DNA of 64,000 nt from assembly GCF_009914755.1 (NCBI RefSeq), contig NC_060943.1; one strand, given 5' to 3'. The notes below the pieces were generated by a model that was not told the DNA's origin, made no database searches, and saw nothing but the letters and a program-made list of their open reading frames with translations. The DNA is from the human T2T-CHM13v2.0 reference genome, Homo sapiens. This document shows positions 37,132 through 56,924 of this stretch, in pieces; within the stretch, counting starts at the first letter, position 1, and the number at the start of each line of letters is the position of its first letter. The position numbers and the translations under genes are program-made.

Positions 37132-37448
37132 TTATTTGAAATTTTAAAAAATTATCTTTTAAATTATTTTTGTTTTTTGAGACAAGGTCTCATTCCCATC
37201 GCCCAGGCTGAAGTGCAGTGGTACGGATCATAGCTCACTGCAGCCTCGACTTCCCAAGGCTCAAGTGATCCTCCCACCTCAGCCTCCCATGTAGTTGGGA
37301 CTACAGGCACGCATCACCATGCCTGGCTAATTATTTTATATTTTTAGTAGAGATGGGGCTTTGCCATGTTGCTTAGGGTGATCTCAAACTCCTGGGGCTC
37401 AGCCTCCCAAAGTGCTGGGATTACAGGTGTGAGCCGCTGCGTCTGGTC
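37132..37448 (-). mobile_element. AluJ with 16-bp TSD
   Basis: TSD ccttcca(g/a)caggtctt at 37116-37131 and 37449-37464. Confidence 0.92.
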
Positions 37449-38397
37449 CCTTCCAACAGGTCTTATCGTTTGCAGGCAGCTCCACTTCCTCCAGCCCCAT
37501 GAGCTCTTATGTCTGCAGCTGGATTCAATCCTTTAACAGTAGGATAAATGATGCCTTAGTTTCCCAGTGTAGGCATTTGTATACATTTCTAGAGGGCTAT
37601 CAGGTAGGGACTCCCCACCCTTCCCTCAACACAGACATAATTATTGCACACACACGCACACACACACACACCCTTAGACACCAAAGCTGCGATGGTTTAT
37701 CTTTTCCCCAGCTTTGCATTCAGCCTCGAAGGGACCTTTCATTGCTCCCTGTTACTTGTGGACACTCACTCACGCTGGCCCCTTAGATGAACAGGCCCTC
37801 GAGGGCAGGTACATGGAAGGTCCCTGGCAAATATTGACTGAATGGCTAAGGTAAGGAATAAACGCATTCTGGATGGGTGAAGTGTCAAGGCTGGAGAAAT
37901 TGGGGCCGACCCAGGTTTTGTGAGTCCCAGGCCGGGCCTGGGGCCAGCTTGTCCTGCCTCGGCTGTTTTGGCGCAGAGACAGCACACCAATTACCCCATA
38001 CTCTTTCCAGGAACTCGTGCTTCCCTTTCTTGCTCTAAGTCGAGCAGCAGGCATCAGTTATGACTGCCCCATTGCAGCGGCCTCGGCTGCACCTGCTCGA
38101 GGAATCACAGAGGATTCTAAGCTGACTGTCGTGGTCCTTTCTCCCAGTAAGGCTCTGTGCAGGCTTCTCCCAGGCTTATTCAAGGGCTGGGGACCAGTAT
38201 CCTGGAAGCATCTCCTAGGGAGCTGGTCAGCTCCTCTGAAACCCTGGGGTCTCCCATGGGCAGTGACGGTCAGTTAAGTTCTAAAGGGAACCATTGCTGT
38301 GTCTCCTAGTATTCAGCAACTGGGCCATCAGGGGTGGTCCAAGCCTGGGGTGATAACCATGGACACCTAGACTGTGAGAGTTAGGGGTGTGGACAGC

Positions 38398-38941
<544 letters not shown>

Positions 38942-39417: not shown

Positions 39418-42020
39418 TTGAAAAAAATAAAAGAATTCCATACTCAAACCAAATCTGAAAACTCTCACATTCCTTATTTGACGAGTTGAGCTGTCACTTG
39501 CATAGCATGAATGGTGGTGGTGTTGGGGGACATGGTCTTCAACTCCATGCCCCTCATCCAAGCTGATTTGCAGTCTCGCCGCATTGCACATTCAGCCTTC
39601 TTTCCCTCCTGCTGAATTGGCGTCAGCTCATCAGCAGCAACCTGAAAATAGCCCGTCTTCCTGGATTCATGTCTTCTGAGCTGGCCAACTGGGCAGCCTT
39701 TGGAAGTGGGCCAGCCCTGTTGGCCTTGGACTTTCCAAACTTCCATGGAGCTGTTGGGTGGAATTCTGAGCAATCCTGTGTGGCTTCAGGGTCATGATCC
39801 CTGTTGGCTCAGAAGAGGAGCCAGTGCAGCTGTATGGGGCTTGAAGGTGGAGAGAGGGTGCCAGACAGGGCCCTGGGGCCACCAGTCTCTGCCTGGAGCC
39901 TCCAGCAACCTCTGTACACTGTGCCTGCTCCTCCCTGCTGGATAGTGGGTGTCATGAGTCCTGGGGCTGGTGGGTCTTGTCCACCATCATGTCTCCAGTG
40001 GCAAGGCTAGGGACTGGCACATGGAAGGATCTCGGTAAGTCTGTTGAATGAATGCAGCAACCTCCATGGGATATTAGCTTTTTTCTGACCAACCTCCAAA
40101 ATGGGCCCGCGTATTTTAAAAAAATTTGAGTGTAGACTGCCCCCAGAAGCAAAAAGGAAAGATGACAAGCTGGAAGCCTTCTCCTATGGCAAGTGCCCAT
40201 GCACCTTTACGCTTTGCACAGTTGTGCATATCTTTCATTCGTGGACAAAGTTGGCCCAGCACCACCACTGTAATCCCTCTGCCTCCTGGAAGTAAACATT
40301 CATGGCTCTTTCTTCCCTTCCCTTGCAAGATAGACTCCTCCTGCCAAGGAAGTCAGGTCTCCCATTGGAGACCCTCCATGCCACGCAGTCTCCTGGCGGG
40401 AGGCCCAGCAAGCAGCAGACCCTGCCGAGGCTGCCTGTGCTTCCTCCACAGTTGAGCTCTGTCCCCATAGGTCTCCCTGGTTAATCACTTAGCCCAGAAA
40501 TCAGTCCCGGCTGGGGTTAAGCGCAGCTCCTGGACCACCTGGCTGCCCAACACATCTAAACAATGGGATGCAAGAGGAGAGGTGTGTGCAAAGATGATTC
40601 CAATGGCAGGAAACAAATTTGGACTCCTTCAGGTGGGAGACATAGCTGGAAATAGAAGGATCCCAGGCAGGGGTTCATTGCCTTGCAAAGCTGAGCTCCC
40701 CACGTGCTCCAATGTGGAAGGGGCTGTTTCCTCTGCCCTCCCTGGAGCCATCTGGCTTTAGCCATTCTGCACAGGCTGAAGAGGGGGCAGAGAGGACTAT
40801 TAAAGACAATTATGCAGACCAGCTTTGAACGATAGTGTTTAACAAACAACTTTGAGTTCTAATTTTCTGCAAAACACATACTGCAGGTACAATTTGTACT
40901 CATTATTGTATATTGGGAAAGTTATTAAAAACACTCAAACTTGGTTGAGACTTCCTATGGCATCATTCCTGGATTTTAATGGGTTTTTATCTAGTTCTAT
41001 AAAAGACCTCTTTAAACCCAATCAAAGTCCCTGCTTTGGATATCTTGCCATTGAAGGATGGGAAGAGCCCCATTATAAGGTATCGGTGTTTCCTTTGACC
41101 CAAATTTGAACAACTTCAACAATCTGCTAAGATTCCGTCAGGAGATAATTTATACTTCTTTTGATGGGCACAGTTACCAAATGATAAAATAACAGTGTTT
41201 CGTAACATAAGGGTTAAATCTTAATCTCTGAGGTTTGCAAAGCCGCTACTCGCAGTCTCCTTAAAATTTAATATACCTCGTTAATGCTTCCTTGCAAACA
41301 CTGAAGGATTTTTATGATTATAATCATGTGTTACAGCACCTAGTACTGTTTCTAAGCAGCATACTAATCAGCTTAATGAGATATTACTGCACTTTTTGTT
41401 GACTAAAGCAAAATCCCTTTTATTATTCTAAAGCCTGTCCTTTACTTTATTTTTTCCCAAAACATTATCTTGTTTTATTATGTACCAGTAAATATCATGC
41501 CATTGAGTGTTTTTTGTTTGTTTTTTTTTTTTTTTTGGCCAAATCATAAAATGATCTCTTTCATCTCAGACTGGTGAATGTACTGAATATAGTAAACGGA
41601 AACAGAAGTTCCAAGTGGGTTTATTTGGTCTTACAGGGAAAGTCATTCTGCTCTCAGGCAAACTTTGGACGGAACCAACAGGTACAGGTGCGACAATGGG
41701 GCAACGGAGAAAAAGTTTCACACGTAGACCCTTGATTTGTTATTAGGTGTTGAAAGTGGTAAAACATTAATAATTTAAAGGTGAATGAATAATTGCAGTC
41801 TGTAAATAGAAAATACAAGGAAGACGATCTGTCGCCAAAACAAATTGGAGGAGCAATGCCATATTGCATAATTGGCATTTAATAATTCATTTTTTTATTA
41901 TTGTTTTTGACAAGAATTCCTTAGCATGATTATGTGTAGGTAAGGCATGAAATGGAAATTCCCTGCCCGCCAATGCTGTTGATTCATGGCGCCACAGCCG
42001 CACCTGGCACGGATCTGAAC

Positions 42021-42039
42021 TCTGCCTCTCTTTTCAGGG
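42021..42039 (+). promoter_or_regulatory. ZNF536: 3' splice acceptor of the coding exon; exon starts at 42038, 2 nt before ATG
   Basis: Polypyrimidine tract tctgcctctcttttc followed by AG (42036-42037), then GGATG. Confidence 0.92.
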
Positions 42040-44209
42040 ATGGAAGAAGCGAGCCTGTGCCTTGGAGTGTCTTCGGCGGAGCCGGAAGCTGAGCCCCACC
42101 TGAGTGGCCCCGTCCTCAACGGCCAGTATGCCATGAGTCAGAAGCTGCACCAGATCACCTCCCAGCTCAGCCATGCCTTCCCCGAGCTCCATCCCCGGCC
42201 CAACCCCGAGGAGAAGCCCCCCGCATCCCTGGAGGAGAAGGCCCACGTGCCCATGAGCGGCCAGCCCATGGGCAGTCAGATGGCGCTCCTGGCCAACCAG
42301 CTGGGCCGGGAGGTGGACACCAGCCTCAACGGGAGGGTGGACTTGCAGCAGTTCCTCAACGGGCAGAACCTGGGCATCATGTCCCAGATGAGCGACATCG
42401 AGGACGACGCCCGCAAGAACCGCAAGTACCCGTGCCCACTCTGCGGCAAGCGCTTCCGCTTCAACAGCATCCTCTCCCTGCACATGCGCACGCACACGGG
42501 CGAGAAGCCCTTCAAGTGCCCGTACTGCGACCACAGGGCGGCGCAGAAGGGGAACCTCAAGATTCACCTGCGGACCCACAAGCTGGGCAACCTGGGCAAG
42601 GGGCGTGGGCGTGTGCGCGAGGAGAACCGCCTGCTGCACGAGCTGGAGGAGCGCGCCATCCTGCGGGACAAGCAGCTGAAAGGCAGCCTGCTGCAGCCCC
42701 GGCCGGACCTGAAGCCCCCGCCGCACGCCCAGCAGGCCCCGCTGGCCGCCTGCACCCTGGCCCTGCAGGCTAACCACAGCGTTCCCGACGTGGCCCACCC
42801 GGTGCCCTCGCCCAAGCCTGCCAGCGTGCAGGAGGACGCGGTGGCCCCGGCGGCGGGCTTCCGCTGTACCTTCTGCAAGGGCAAGTTCAAGAAGCGCGAG
42901 GAGCTGGACCGCCACATCCGCATCTTGCACAAGCCCTACAAGTGCACGTTGTGCGACTTCGCGGCTTCGCAGGAGGAGGAGCTCATCAGCCACGTGGAGA
43001 AGGCACACATCACGGCCGAGTCGGCCCAGGGCCAGGGCCCCAACGGCGGTGGCGAGCAGTCGGCCAACGAGTTCCGCTGCGAGGTGTGCGGTCAGGTGTT
43101 CAGCCAGGCGTGGTTCCTCAAGGGTCACATGCGCAAGCACAAAGACTCCTTTGAGCACTGCTGCCAGATCTGCGGCCGGCGCTTCAAGGAGCCCTGGTTC
43201 CTCAAGAACCACATGAAGGTCCACCTCAACAAGCTGTCGGTGAAGAACAAGTCCCCCAGCGACCCCGAGGTGCCTGTGCCCATGGGCGGCATGTCCCAGG
43301 AGGCCCACGCCAACCTGTACTCCAGGTACCTCTCCTGCCTGCAGAGTGGCTTCATGACCCCGGACAAAGCCGGCCTGAGCGAGCCCAGCCAGCTCTATGG
43401 CAAGGGCGAGCTGCCCATGAAGGAGAAGGAAGCGCTGGGGAAGCTGCTGTCTCCCATCTCCAGCATGGCCCACGGCGTCCCGGAGGGGGACAAGCACTCC
43501 CTCCTGGGATGCCTCAATCTCGTGCCGCCGCTGAAATCCAGCTGCATCGAGCGGCTGCAGGCGGCTGCCAAGGCTGCGGAGATGGACCCCGTGAACAGCT
43601 ACCAGGCTTGGCAGCTCATGGCCAGGGGCATGGCCATGGAACATGGCTTCTTGTCTAAAGAGCATCCGCTGCAGCGCAACCACGAAGACACTTTGGCAAA
43701 CGCCGGGGTTCTGTTTGATAAGGAGAAGCGGGAGTACGTGTTAGTGGGAGCAGATGGCTCCAAGCAGAAAATGCCTGCTGATTTGGTTCACAGCACTAAA
43801 GTGGGCAGCCAGAGAGACCTGCCAAGTAAGCTCGACCCTTTAGAAAGCAGTCGGGATTTTTTGTCACACGGGCTGAACCAGACTCTCGAGTATAACCTGC
43901 AGGGTCCTGGGAACATGAAGGAGAAGCCCACCGAGTGCCCCGACTGCGGCCGGGTGTTCCGCACTTACCACCAGGTGGTCGTGCACTCCCGTGTCCACAA
44001 GCGGGACCGCAAGGGCGAGGAGGATGGGCTGCACGTGGGCCTGGATGAGCGGCGTGGCTCGGGCAGTGACCAGGAGTCCCAGTCGGTGAGCCGCTCCACC
44101 ACGCCGGGCTCCTCTAACGTCACCGAGGAGAGCGGGGTCGGAGGCGGCCTCTCCCAGACCGGGAGTGCCCAGGAGGACAGCCCGCACCCCTCCTCGCCAT
44201 CCTCCTCAG
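42040..44209 (+). CDS. ZNF536: Zinc finger protein 536, first coding exon (aa 1-723, ends in phase 1; gene continues beyond the window)
   Basis: ORF MEEASLCLGVSSAEPEAEPHLSGPVLNGQY... recognised as the ZNF536 N-terminus. Very high GC3, seven C2H2 fingers, acceptor ctctcttttcAG|GG ATG and donor TCAG|GTAGGT. 2170 coding nt = 723 codons + 1 nt. The ORF-track extension to 44370 is intron read-through. Confidence 0.97.
42427..42579 (+). other. ZNF536: C2H2 zinc fingers 1-2 (aa 130-180) with TGEKP linker
   Basis: YPCPLCGKRFRFNSILSLHMRTH-TGEKP-FKCPYCDHRAAQKGNLKIHLRTH. Confidence 0.95.
42859..43224 (+). other. ZNF536: C2H2 zinc fingers 3-6 (aa 274-395)
   Basis: FRCTFC...HIRILH; YKCTLC...HVEKAH; FRCEVC...HMRKH; HCCQIC...HMKVH. 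Confidence 0.95.
43930..43998 (+). other. ZNF536: C2H2 zinc finger 7 (aa 631-653)
   Basis: TECPDCGRVFRTYHQVVVHSRVH. Confidence 0.93.
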
Positions 44210-44215
44210 GTAGGT
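44207..44215 (+). promoter_or_regulatory. ZNF536: 5' splice donor of the coding exon
   Basis: CAG|GTAGGT; codon bias and CpG density drop immediately after it. Confidence 0.9.
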
Positions 44216-44442
44216 TAGCTGAGAAGCGGGGAGAAGCAGCTTGTACAGCAGCCCTGCTCAGGGCTGCCTGGTTCTGCTCCCAGGCCTCCAGTCAGTTCCA
44301 AGGCCAGTGGGTCTTGATTGAGGACAGGGGTGGGTTGGACACTGGGCCATGCCTTTCTTTCCCCCCCTGACTGGAGGGAAAGGGCCGTCCTTTCACCTCT
44401 TAGGCCTTCCCTTGAACACTGGCTACCAAGAAAGTAAGTTGA

Positions 44443-44856
<414 letters not shown>

Positions 44857-55625: not shown

Positions 55626-56924
55626 ATGGGAGGGTTTACCCTGGGGCCTGTGGGAGCACCTTGGTGCCCAGTTTGTTCTCAAAGGATCTGAAAGGGCAAG
55701 GAACCACTTCAATTAGCTCAGCGACTTCTTTGGCAAGGAGGAGTAACTCTTTCCCTCTGTAGAATTAGGCCAATCCTGGTGACTTCCTGGAGGAAGCAGA
55801 CAAGTCTCTTTTAGCCACTGTGGCTGGCTGCTGTTCTTTCCCTGGCTGGGAGCCACAGTCTAAGTAAATGCCTTGTCACATACAGAAGAGGCCCTGGGAG
55901 AAGAGTCCAGTGGGTGCTTCCCAGGAAGGCATCCCAGGCTGGGAAGGGAGGGAGAGGGCCGGAGCAGGATGGGAGCTGCTGAGGCCCAGTGAAAGCTTTG
56001 TTGCACCCTACACACCACATAGGGGGCCTCCCCGAGGGAGAGCACTCTGGGGGACGCAGGACAGTTCTCCACACCAGAAAGTGAGAGGCAGGCTCCTGGC
56101 TCCAGCTCATGGCCCCCTGACCATGCTGTCCTTGGAGGCAGTGGCTCATGAATGGAGGAAGACACATCAGGTGGTCAGGGGTGTGAGGCTCCTACTGGGA
56201 CCCTGCAGCTGGAGCGTGCAGAGAACCTGTGAGGCCCCACACTGGGAAGGAGGGCTCACATTTTATCCATTTCCCTGTCTGCCTTAGGAACTGTCCATAC
56301 CTGCCCCACAGGGGCTCTGGGTGTCTCATGGGAGGGCTGCACCCCCAGTATGTCAGAACGTCCATCTGCAGCCTGCAGCAGAGGATTGCAGGCACTCGTG
56401 GATACGGCCCCTCTTCTTTTTGGGTGGTGGGTGGGACATGAACTGAACGAGGGCTTGCTATGAGAATGGGTGGAAGTGACTTCTAGTCAATTGCCCTTTA
56501 TCTTCTGATGAAGCAAAACGTCATATGCTTAGATATTAAGCCAGAGACAAACACATTTTCTCACGTTAAAGGAAAGGCTGAGGGCGGAACGTCCCCACTT
56601 CACTTTGGAGCCGGGCCCCACACACATTTTCGGGGCCATGCGTTTAGTCATCCTGCTGGACTATTTGGGCAGCTCGCTTTCCTTCTCTGGGCTTTGGCTT
56701 TTTCCTCCACATCATGGGAATTTGGGTGGGGAAGTGTAGAAGATTCGGAGACGCCTCTCAGCTTCCATTTTTCCTTCATCTTTCAATGTTTCCCCCACCT
56801 TTCTCTCCTCTCCCTTCCTAAATGTTTCCATGGCTTGGGGGTGATTTTAAAGGGTCTTACCTGCTGTTCCTTGAGTAGAGAATTAACGTTCCTAGGGTCC
56901 AAGTATTTCCTCGATTTCCTGCTG

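What the first reader, a model, noticed from the sequence alone, without database searches (positions are those of the whole stretch)
42038..44209. ZNF536 start-codon exon would circularise into an endless, stop-free ORF (candidate rolling-circle translated circRNA)
Seen: the exon is 2172 nt, exactly 724 codons. Back-splicing joins the last base G (44209) to GG (42038-42039), reading TCC TCA GGG ATG GAA. The junction adds one Gly and returns to the native ATG in frame, with no stop anywhere on the circle. It also creates a strong Kozak context (G at -3, G at +4), and DRACH-type motifs lie just before it (AGACC 44156, GGACA 44175). Established: long ATG-containing exons flanked by long introns often form circRNAs (circ-ZNF609 is a translated example), and stop-free circles can support rolling-circle translation. 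Inference: such a circle could yield concatemers of the 7-finger N-terminal half without the C-terminal region, possibly dominant-negative or multivalent. Caveat: a 3n length occurs by chance one time in three.
Basis: partly seen in the sequence, partly recalled or inferred. Interest (0 to 1): 0.85.

Follow-up and report, generated by a model that had tools for sequence, protein, structure and literature searches.

The report
ZNF536 first coding exon, endless-if-circular
This is the ordinary first coding exon of ZNF536; it would indeed read without a stop if spliced into a circle, but about one in five comparable exons on chromosome 19 would too, and nothing here shows that such a circle is translated.

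Summary
The arithmetic is right. Exon 42038-44209 is 2172 nt (724 x 3). It starts 2 nt before the ATG and ends on a phase-1 donor, so a single-exon circle has no stop in the native frame.

The property is common. On chr19, 479 MANE Select start codons lie in internal exons. Of those exons, 147 are 3n, which is no excess, and 103 (21.5%) would give a stop-free circle. Published figures are 8% of AUG circRNAs and 14% of all circRNAs.

The supporting details are not specific. DRACH motifs occur at chance level: 30 against 28.9 +/- 4.1. The linear mRNAs already carry a purine at -3.

Circularisation is plausible:
- The flanking introns are 71 kb and 89 kb.
- An inverted Alu pair brackets the exon, 3.3 kb upstream and 0.23 kb downstream.
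- circBase lists a ZNF536 circRNA, but I could not see which exons it contains.

The closest paralogue, ZNF516, does not share the property, judging from splice sites I inferred. Orthologues could not be checked.

Verdict: an incidental endless frame in a plausible, unverified AUG circRNA. Rolling-circle translation is unsupported.

The parts
42038..44209 (+). ZNF536 first coding exon (exon 2 of MANE Select NM_014717.3), 2172 nt, 64.7% GC
   Evidence: The bounds are identical in 46 of 47 RefSeq transcripts.
42020..42037 (+). Pyrimidine tract and ag acceptor; this would be the back-splice acceptor
   Evidence: Read directly.
42040..42042 (+). Native ATG, 2 nt inside the exon. With the phase-1 donor, this makes the exon 3n.
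   Evidence: and the RefSeq coding start.
44210..44215 (+). Phase-1 gtaggt donor; this would be the back-splice donor
   Evidence: All downstream coding introns are also phase 1: exons of 153, 87 and 1572 nt are all 3n.
44008..44208 (+). Residues 657-723, which match positions 1-67 of 81 in Pfam PF16606 (zf-C2H2_assoc). The conserved region is cut by the exon end.
   Evidence: E = 1.1e-35.
38441..38745 (-). Antisense Alu, 3293 nt upstream of the acceptor; upstream arm of the inverted pair
   Evidence: I8, I1; sub-threshold Metazoa_SRP matches; masked repeat 38394-38747.
37164..37435 (-). Second antisense Alu, 4603 nt upstream of the acceptor
   Evidence: (duplex -363 kcal/mol with the downstream Alu).
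44442..44750 (+). Sense Alu with an A-tail and a GAAA-type microsatellite, 233 nt downstream of the donor; downstream arm of the inverted pair
   Evidence: (duplex -445.5 kcal/mol against -133.9 +/- 7.1 for 30 shuffles).

Best explanation
This is the constitutive first coding exon of ZNF536. It encodes residues 1-723, with seven C2H2 fingers, plus the first base of codon 724. Its job is ordinary linear splicing into ZNF536 mRNA. Its 3n length follows from two facts: the acceptor lies 2 nt before the ATG, and the donor is phase 1, as at every other coding intron of the gene. The endless frame on circularisation is therefore an incidental by-product, shared by about one in five start-codon exons. 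Long flanking introns and a bracketing inverted Alu pair make some back-splicing of this exon likely (inferred, not shown). If the circle forms, it is most likely a low-abundance AUG circRNA that is not translated to any meaningful extent.
For: All coding exons are 3n, and all five circles that start at this acceptor (e2, e2+3, e2+3+3b, e2+3+4, e2+3+3b+4) are stop-free. This shows the property comes from gene-wide phase symmetry plus u = 2. Base rate on chr19: 147 of 479 exons are 3n and 103 of 479 are stop-free circles. All 14 of the 3n exons with 5 nt or less of 5'UTR are stop-free. Stagsted 2019 (passages) reports infinite ORFs in 8% of AUG circRNAs in human and mouse, with ORF features at chance, no in-frame ribosome footprints across junctions, and no peptides. 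DRACH count is 30 against 28.9 +/- 4.1. The -3 purine is already present in linear mRNAs. The exon is 64.7% GC, whereas the IRES-like elements of Fan 2022 are AU-rich. The homologous ZNF516 exon, with inferred splice sites, is 1967 nt (not 3n) and has an in-frame TAG in its 157-nt UTR part, while the phase-1 donor is kept. For circularisation potential: introns of 70.9 kb and 89.2 kb; an Alu pair 5.7 kb apart across the exon, against 12.2 kb and 25.8 kb to the nearest same-intron inverted partners; a strong predicted duplex; and circBase hsa_circ_0109365/ZNF536 matched across its junction by a goat circRNA.
Against: Fan et al. 2022 (passages) argue that circRNA translation is pervasive. They report that rolling-circle ORFs yield about half of the junction peptides they detected, although such ORFs are the minority, so an endless ORF may be translated more efficiently than a finite one. 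This exon is the longest of the 103 stop-free chr19 exons and has the longest flanks. It is the only stop-free one among the 4 exons with both introns above 20 kb, so it is an extreme case for circularisation. One IRES-like hexamer named in Fan 2022 (AAGAAG) sits right after the ATG. I could not examine orthologues, back-splice reads, ribosome profiling or proteomics. The 74-aa tryptic junction peptide would escape standard proteomics, so published negatives say little about this circle.
Confidence: 0.8

Rival explanations
1. The exon-2 circle forms in neurons, ribosomes start internally at the native AUG and run round without stopping. The result is an approximately 80-kDa seven-finger unit or concatemers of it, which act as dominant-negative or multivalent ZNF536.
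For: The circle is 3n, stop-free and carries the native ATG. The architecture favours back-splicing. [quoted passage not shown] Frames +1 and +2 carry 18 and 13 stops, so a frameshift would end a chain quickly.
Against: There is no evidence that this circle exists or is translated. The property is common (21.5%). The Kozak and DRACH arguments fail the controls. AUG circRNAs as a class show no translation signal. The exon is GC-rich, while reported IRES-like elements are AU-rich. The rolling-circle cases whose sizes are given in the review table are 249 nt and 361 nt, and circTau 12->10, with an infinite ORF, is 288 nt. This circle is about 6-9 times larger. Fan 2022 reports that some such concatemers are rapidly degraded. 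ZNF516 lacks the property.
Confidence: 0.04
2. The circle forms and matters as a non-coding event. Back-splicing of the only start-codon exon competes with linear splicing, an 'mRNA trap', and so tunes ZNF536 protein output; or the circle acts as an RNA.
For: The exon carries the only annotated start used by 46 of 47 transcripts, so any transcript that loses it cannot make ZNF536. AUG circRNAs are described as the most abundant and conserved class, with long flanking introns. A ZNF536 circRNA junction is shared between human circBase and goat.
Against: No annotated transcript skips the exon. The abundance and exon content of the recorded ZNF536 circRNAs were not visible to me. No paper in the library studies a ZNF536 circRNA functionally.
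Confidence: 0.12
3. No exon-2 circle is made at any meaningful level. The recorded ZNF536 circRNAs come from other exons: 5'UTR exons, or exons 3-4.
For: The one mouse Zfp536 circRNA whose coordinates I saw spans about 9 kb of genome, not a 2.2-kb single exon. The total distance to the inverted Alus (3526 nt) exceeds the 2300-nt cut-off Stagsted used for Alu-dependent circles. QKI-type ACTAAY motifs are not enriched in the window: 32 against 44.7 +/- 6.5.
Against: Long flanking introns are the main correlate of conserved AUG circRNAs. The nearest complementary Alu partners lie across the exon.
Confidence: 0.3

Closest known systems
AUG circRNAs (Stagsted et al. 2019, PMC6487579)
   Same: An internal exon carrying the annotated start codon, with very long flanking introns (above 6.5 kb) and an N-terminal part of the host ORF. 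It would fall in the 8% subset with an infinite ORF.
   Different: The existence of the circle is not shown here. Stagsted et al. conclude that the class is non-coding.
circZNF609
   Same: A single-exon circle of exon 2 of a zinc-finger gene. It contains the host start codon and has Alus in both flanking introns (review table).
   Different: It is 874 nt with a finite 250-aa ORF. The ZNF536 circle would be 2172 nt with no stop.
circEGFR (rolling-translated EGFR) and circNFIB
   Same: A 3n circle with an infinite ORF in the host frame.
   Different: They are 249 nt and 361 nt, made of internal exons without the host start codon, and carry experimental evidence. The ZNF536 case is about 6-9 times larger and carries no evidence.
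circPSAP, circPFAS, circABHD12 (Fan et al. 2022)
   Same: Endogenous circles with rolling-circle ORFs overlapping the host protein.
   Different: They have junction peptides by mass spectrometry and reporter ladders, with units of 10-22 kDa against 79.8 kDa here.
circHIPK3
   Same: An AUG circRNA from a large exon 2 with long flanking introns plus flanking inverted Alus. Its biogenesis is argued to be largely Alu-independent.
   Different: It is the most abundant human circRNA and treated as non-coding. Its inverted Alus lie within 2300 nt, against 3526 nt here. Its exon size is recalled, not checked.

Membership tests
AUG circRNA | The circle contains the annotated start codon of a protein-coding host | tested here: met
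   ATG at 42040, 2 nt inside the exon.
AUG circRNA | A back-splice junction is observed in RNA | not testable with these tools
   Reads and circBase are not available. Only a circBase id for the host gene was seen (hsa_circ_0109365), without exon content.
AUG circRNA | Long flanking introns (above 6.5 kb in Stagsted 2019) | tested here: met
   70,949 nt and 89,189 nt. Only 22 of 479 chr19 start-codon exons have both flanks above 6.5 kb.
Infinite-ORF (rolling-circle) circRNA | Circle length divisible by 3, with no stop in one frame | tested here: met
   2172 nt, 0 stops in the native frame. The same holds for the four longer circles that start at this acceptor.
Infinite-ORF (rolling-circle) circRNA | A start codon in the endless frame | tested here: met
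   The native ATG plus 20 further in-frame ATGs.
Infinite-ORF (rolling-circle) circRNA | A concatemeric product or junction-spanning peptide | not testable with these tools
   No proteomics or ribosome profiling is available. The tryptic junction peptide would be 74 aa; the Glu-C peptide would be 13 aa.
Alu-dependent circRNA (Stagsted cut-off) | Inverted Alu elements within 2300 nt total distance of the splice sites | tested here: not met
   3293 + 233 = 3526 nt. An inverted pair is nevertheless present and predicted to pair strongly.
m6A-driven circRNA translation | DRACH sites above background near the start, and methylated | tested here: not met
   30 DRACH sites in the exon against 28.9 +/- 4.1 in 1000 codon shuffles. 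Methylation itself is not testable.

The most novel reading that the evidence does not exclude
In ZNF536-expressing neurons the 2172-nt exon-2 circle is made and read round by ribosomes. This would give an approximately 80-kDa seven-finger N-terminal ZNF536, or multimers of it, that compete with the full-length repressor. It would be by far the largest rolling-circle translation unit described.
Probability: 0.04. Interest if true: 0.6.

Novelty: new member of a known kind. Interest (0 to 1): 0.2.

Why it matters
If the circle existed and were translated, it would add a truncated or multimeric form of a brain transcriptional repressor. It would also stretch rolling-circle translation to a unit of 724 residues. 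As it stands, the useful result is a calibration. An endless frame in a start-codon exon is expected in about one exon in five, so on its own it should not be read as a signal of circRNA translation.

Tried and rejected
**Searches for a published human ZNF536 circRNA**
- Name variants (1 paper, on goat).
- ZNF536 plus circRNA (19 papers). I opened two goat papers. The other 17 I judged from titles and abstracts only.
- The circBase id (only the goat paper is relevant).
- circAtlas-style names (0 papers).
- Zfp536 plus circRNA (4 papers; 3 opened, of which one lists only a linear transcript).
- hg19/hg38 exon coordinates that I recalled from memory (only unrelated number matches, so this blank means little).

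Supplements are closed. The following may hold the answer and were not seen: Fan 2022 Supplementary Data 4, the Stagsted tables, goat Table S8, and the brain circRNA tables behind circBase.

**Motif test.** QKI-type motifs in the window are not enriched.

**Orthologue test (mouse, chicken, fish).** I did not run the protein homology search. Coding indels are 3n by necessity and the donor phase is fixed by the linear ORF. Protein alignments therefore cannot reveal the only free variable, the acceptor-to-ATG distance.

**Paralogues.** ZNF217 and ZNF219 loci (L154, L155) were fetched but not analysed. The ZNF516 exon bounds are my inference from splice-site motifs, not from annotation.

**Script and call failures.** One search failed to map loci because the records carry no coordinates; one search repeated the step using fetch order. 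One search was rejected for a term format slip ('A/U') and was corrected.

Full report
**Observation**

The window sequence shows a pyrimidine tract and an ag acceptor ending at 42037. The exon starts with GG at 42038-39, the ATG is at 42040, and a gtaggt donor follows 44209. Translation of 42040-44209 gives 723 sense codons and one spare base. The exon is therefore 2172 nt = 724 x 3.

Joining its last base to its first two gives a Gly codon followed by the native ATG. Rotated as a circle, the native frame has 0 stops and the other two frames have 18 and 13. One round is 724 residues, 79.8 kDa, with seven C2H2 fingers by pattern. Pfam finds C2H2 finger families, and finds PF16606 over residues 657-723, matching profile positions 1-67 of 81, so the exon end cuts that region.

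**What the exon is**

RefSeq lists 47 ZNF536 transcripts. 46 of them use exactly these bounds, and the remaining one starts from a downstream promoter. This is the constitutive first coding exon.

In the MANE Select transcript the upstream intron is 70,949 nt and the downstream intron is 89,189 nt. Every other internal coding exon is also 3n (153, 87 and 1572 nt), so all coding introns are phase 1. Given that, the 3n length of this exon reduces to one fact: the acceptor lies 2 nt before the ATG.

Consistently, all five circles that begin at this acceptor and end at a downstream internal donor are 3n and stop-free. All seven combinations that begin with an upstream 5'UTR exon run into stops.

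**Is it more than chance?**

I took the 1377 MANE Select mRNAs of chr19. 479 of them have the start codon in an internal exon that does not also hold the stop codon.

| Set of exons | Count |
|---|---|
| 3n length | 147 of 479 (30.7%; the other two length classes have 166 each) |
| 3n and stop-free as a single-exon circle | 103 of 147, i.e. 21.5% of 479 |
| 3n with 5 nt or less of 5'UTR, and stop-free | 14 of 14 |

There is no excess of 3n. To get the stop-free count I fetched the 3n exons and read each as a circle from its annotated ATG. 102 of 145 were stop-free. The two exons first lost to truncation added one yes (KLK6) and one no (ZNF540). One of the 145 (PLK5) has its start codon split by the exon end, and it has a stop.

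Published figures agree in kind:
- Stagsted et al. 2019 (passages read) report infinite ORFs in 8% of AUG circRNAs in human and mouse, with ORF lengths past the junction close to chance expectation.
- Fan et al. 2022 (passages read) report that 14% of full-length human circRNAs carry a host-frame rolling-circle ORF.

The endless frame is thus an expected, frequent by-product.

**The supporting details fail their controls**
- DRACH motifs: 30 in the exon against 28.9 +/- 4.1 in 1000 codon shuffles.
- Kozak context: the G at -3 is not created by back-splicing. The last base of the five annotated upstream exons examined is G in four and A in one, so linear mRNAs have the same purine at -3 and the same G at +4.
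- Composition: the exon is 64.7% GC against 46.5% for the window. Fan et al. describe the IRES-like elements as AU-rich.
- One hexamer they name (AAGAAG) does occur just after the ATG. They also note that such hexamers occur by chance in any sequence above 50 nt.

**What does favour a circle**

The exon stands out for architecture, not for its frame.
- It is the third-longest internal start-codon exon on chr19 and the longest of the 103 stop-free ones.
- Only 22 of 479 exons have both flanks above 6.5 kb. Of these, 7 are 3n and 5 are stop-free.
- Of the 4 exons with both flanks above 20 kb, it is the only stop-free one.

A blastn map with one Alu copy finds 17 Alu-like elements in the window. 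Upstream, 10 of 11 are antisense; the nearest are at 38441-38745 (3293 nt from the acceptor) and 37164-37435. Downstream, the nearest four of six are sense; the first is at 44442-44750, only 233 nt past the donor. These elements match the masked repeats of the annotation. They give sub-threshold matches to the SRP RNA model, as 7SL-derived elements do.

The two nearest arms are 5.7 kb apart across the exon. The nearest inverted partners within the same intron are 12.2 kb and 25.8 kb away. The predicted inter-arm duplex is -445.5 kcal/mol, against -133.9 +/- 7.1 for 30 shuffles. The same-intron partners pair about as well, at -467.6 and -451.8 kcal/mol.

By the Stagsted cut-off (2300 nt total) the pair is too distant to class the exon as Alu-dependent. 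By the same paper, long flanking introns are the feature of conserved AUG circRNAs. QKI-type motifs are not enriched: 32 against 44.7 +/- 6.5.

**Direct evidence from the literature**

No paper in the searchable library studies a human ZNF536 circRNA.
- A goat follicle study lists circBase hsa_circ_0109365/ZNF536 as matching a goat circRNA across the back-splice junction (Table 2 and methods).
- A second goat paper mentions a circZNF536 in passing, with a garbled id.
- A mouse brain table lists a Zfp536 circRNA spanning about 9 kb of genome.
- Another paper lists Zfp536 among circRNA host genes.

None gives exon content in the text I could read, and supplements are closed. The locus therefore makes circRNAs in three mammals, but whether any is the exon-2 circle is unknown to me.

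**Translation**

Stagsted et al. found no phasing of ribosome footprints across junctions, no peptides and no product from ectopic AUG circRNAs. They warn that vector by-products mimic circRNA translation.

Fan et al. take the opposite view. They report that rolling-circle ORFs are over-represented among junction peptides and that some such products are quickly degraded by the proteasome.

A 2024 review lists rolling-circle cases circEGFR (249 nt) and circNFIB (361 nt), and circTau 12->10 (288 nt) with an infinite ORF. All are far smaller than 2172 nt.

For this circle the tryptic junction peptide would be 74 residues, so ordinary proteomics could not see it. A Glu-C peptide would be 13 residues.

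**Paralogues**

The exon's protein finds ZNF516 (41% identity over residues 123-717), ZNF217 and ZNF219 in the human genome.

In ZNF516, using splice sites that I inferred from the sequence (no annotation was available for chr18), the homologous exon has these features:
- It keeps the phase-1 donor.
- It is 1967 nt, which is 2 mod 3.
- It has 157 nt of 5'UTR with an in-frame TAG.

The property is not shared by the closest paralogue. Orthologues could not be examined with these tools. Coding constraints force everything but the acceptor-to-ATG distance to stay 3n, so 'conserved 3n length' would be a weak test unless that short distance is looked at directly.

**Verdict**

The exon is an ordinary constitutive coding exon whose endless circular frame is incidental. 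Circularisation is plausible from the architecture but unverified. Rolling-circle translation has no support beyond the arithmetic.

If the circle were shown to exist it would be a new member of a known kind: an AUG circRNA with an infinite ORF.

Noticed in passing
window 4300-58133: Alu orientation is strongly asymmetric around the exon. 10 of 11 upstream copies are antisense to the gene, and the nearest four downstream copies are sense. Nearly every upstream copy can therefore pair with the near downstream ones across the exon.
   Followed up: partly
window 44008-44208 and the next exon (chr19:33055399-33055551): The conserved Pfam region PF16606 (zf-C2H2_assoc) is split by the exon 2/3 boundary: profile positions 1-67 of 81 lie in this exon.
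   Followed up: no
chr19:33055399-33070067 (outside the window; L146-L148): All internal coding exons of ZNF536 are 3n (153, 87, 1572 nt), and every coding intron is phase 1. Any exon skipping or any circle starting at exon 2 would therefore keep the frame.
   Followed up: yes
window 38405-38446 and 44751-44790: Both Alus of the bracketing pair carry A-tail-derived GAAA-type microsatellites. These are complementary to each other and extend the inverted repeat beyond the Alu bodies.
   Followed up: no
window 44646-44705 and 38560-38611: Sub-threshold Rfam matches to mir-3135 and mir-1268 fall inside the two Alus (about 41 bits against gathering scores of 80 and 83). They are most likely just Alu sequence.
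   Followed up: no
window 56131-56641: This is the only RefSeq functional element in the window, an H3K27ac-H3K4me1 hESC enhancer. It lies 12 kb into the downstream intron, among the downstream Alu cluster.
   Followed up: no
L153 (chr18:76669700-76672500, minus strand): The ZNF516 first coding exon keeps the same phase-1 donor position class as ZNF536 but has a much longer 5'UTR part (157 nt against 2 nt). The splice sites are inferred from motifs only.
   Followed up: partly
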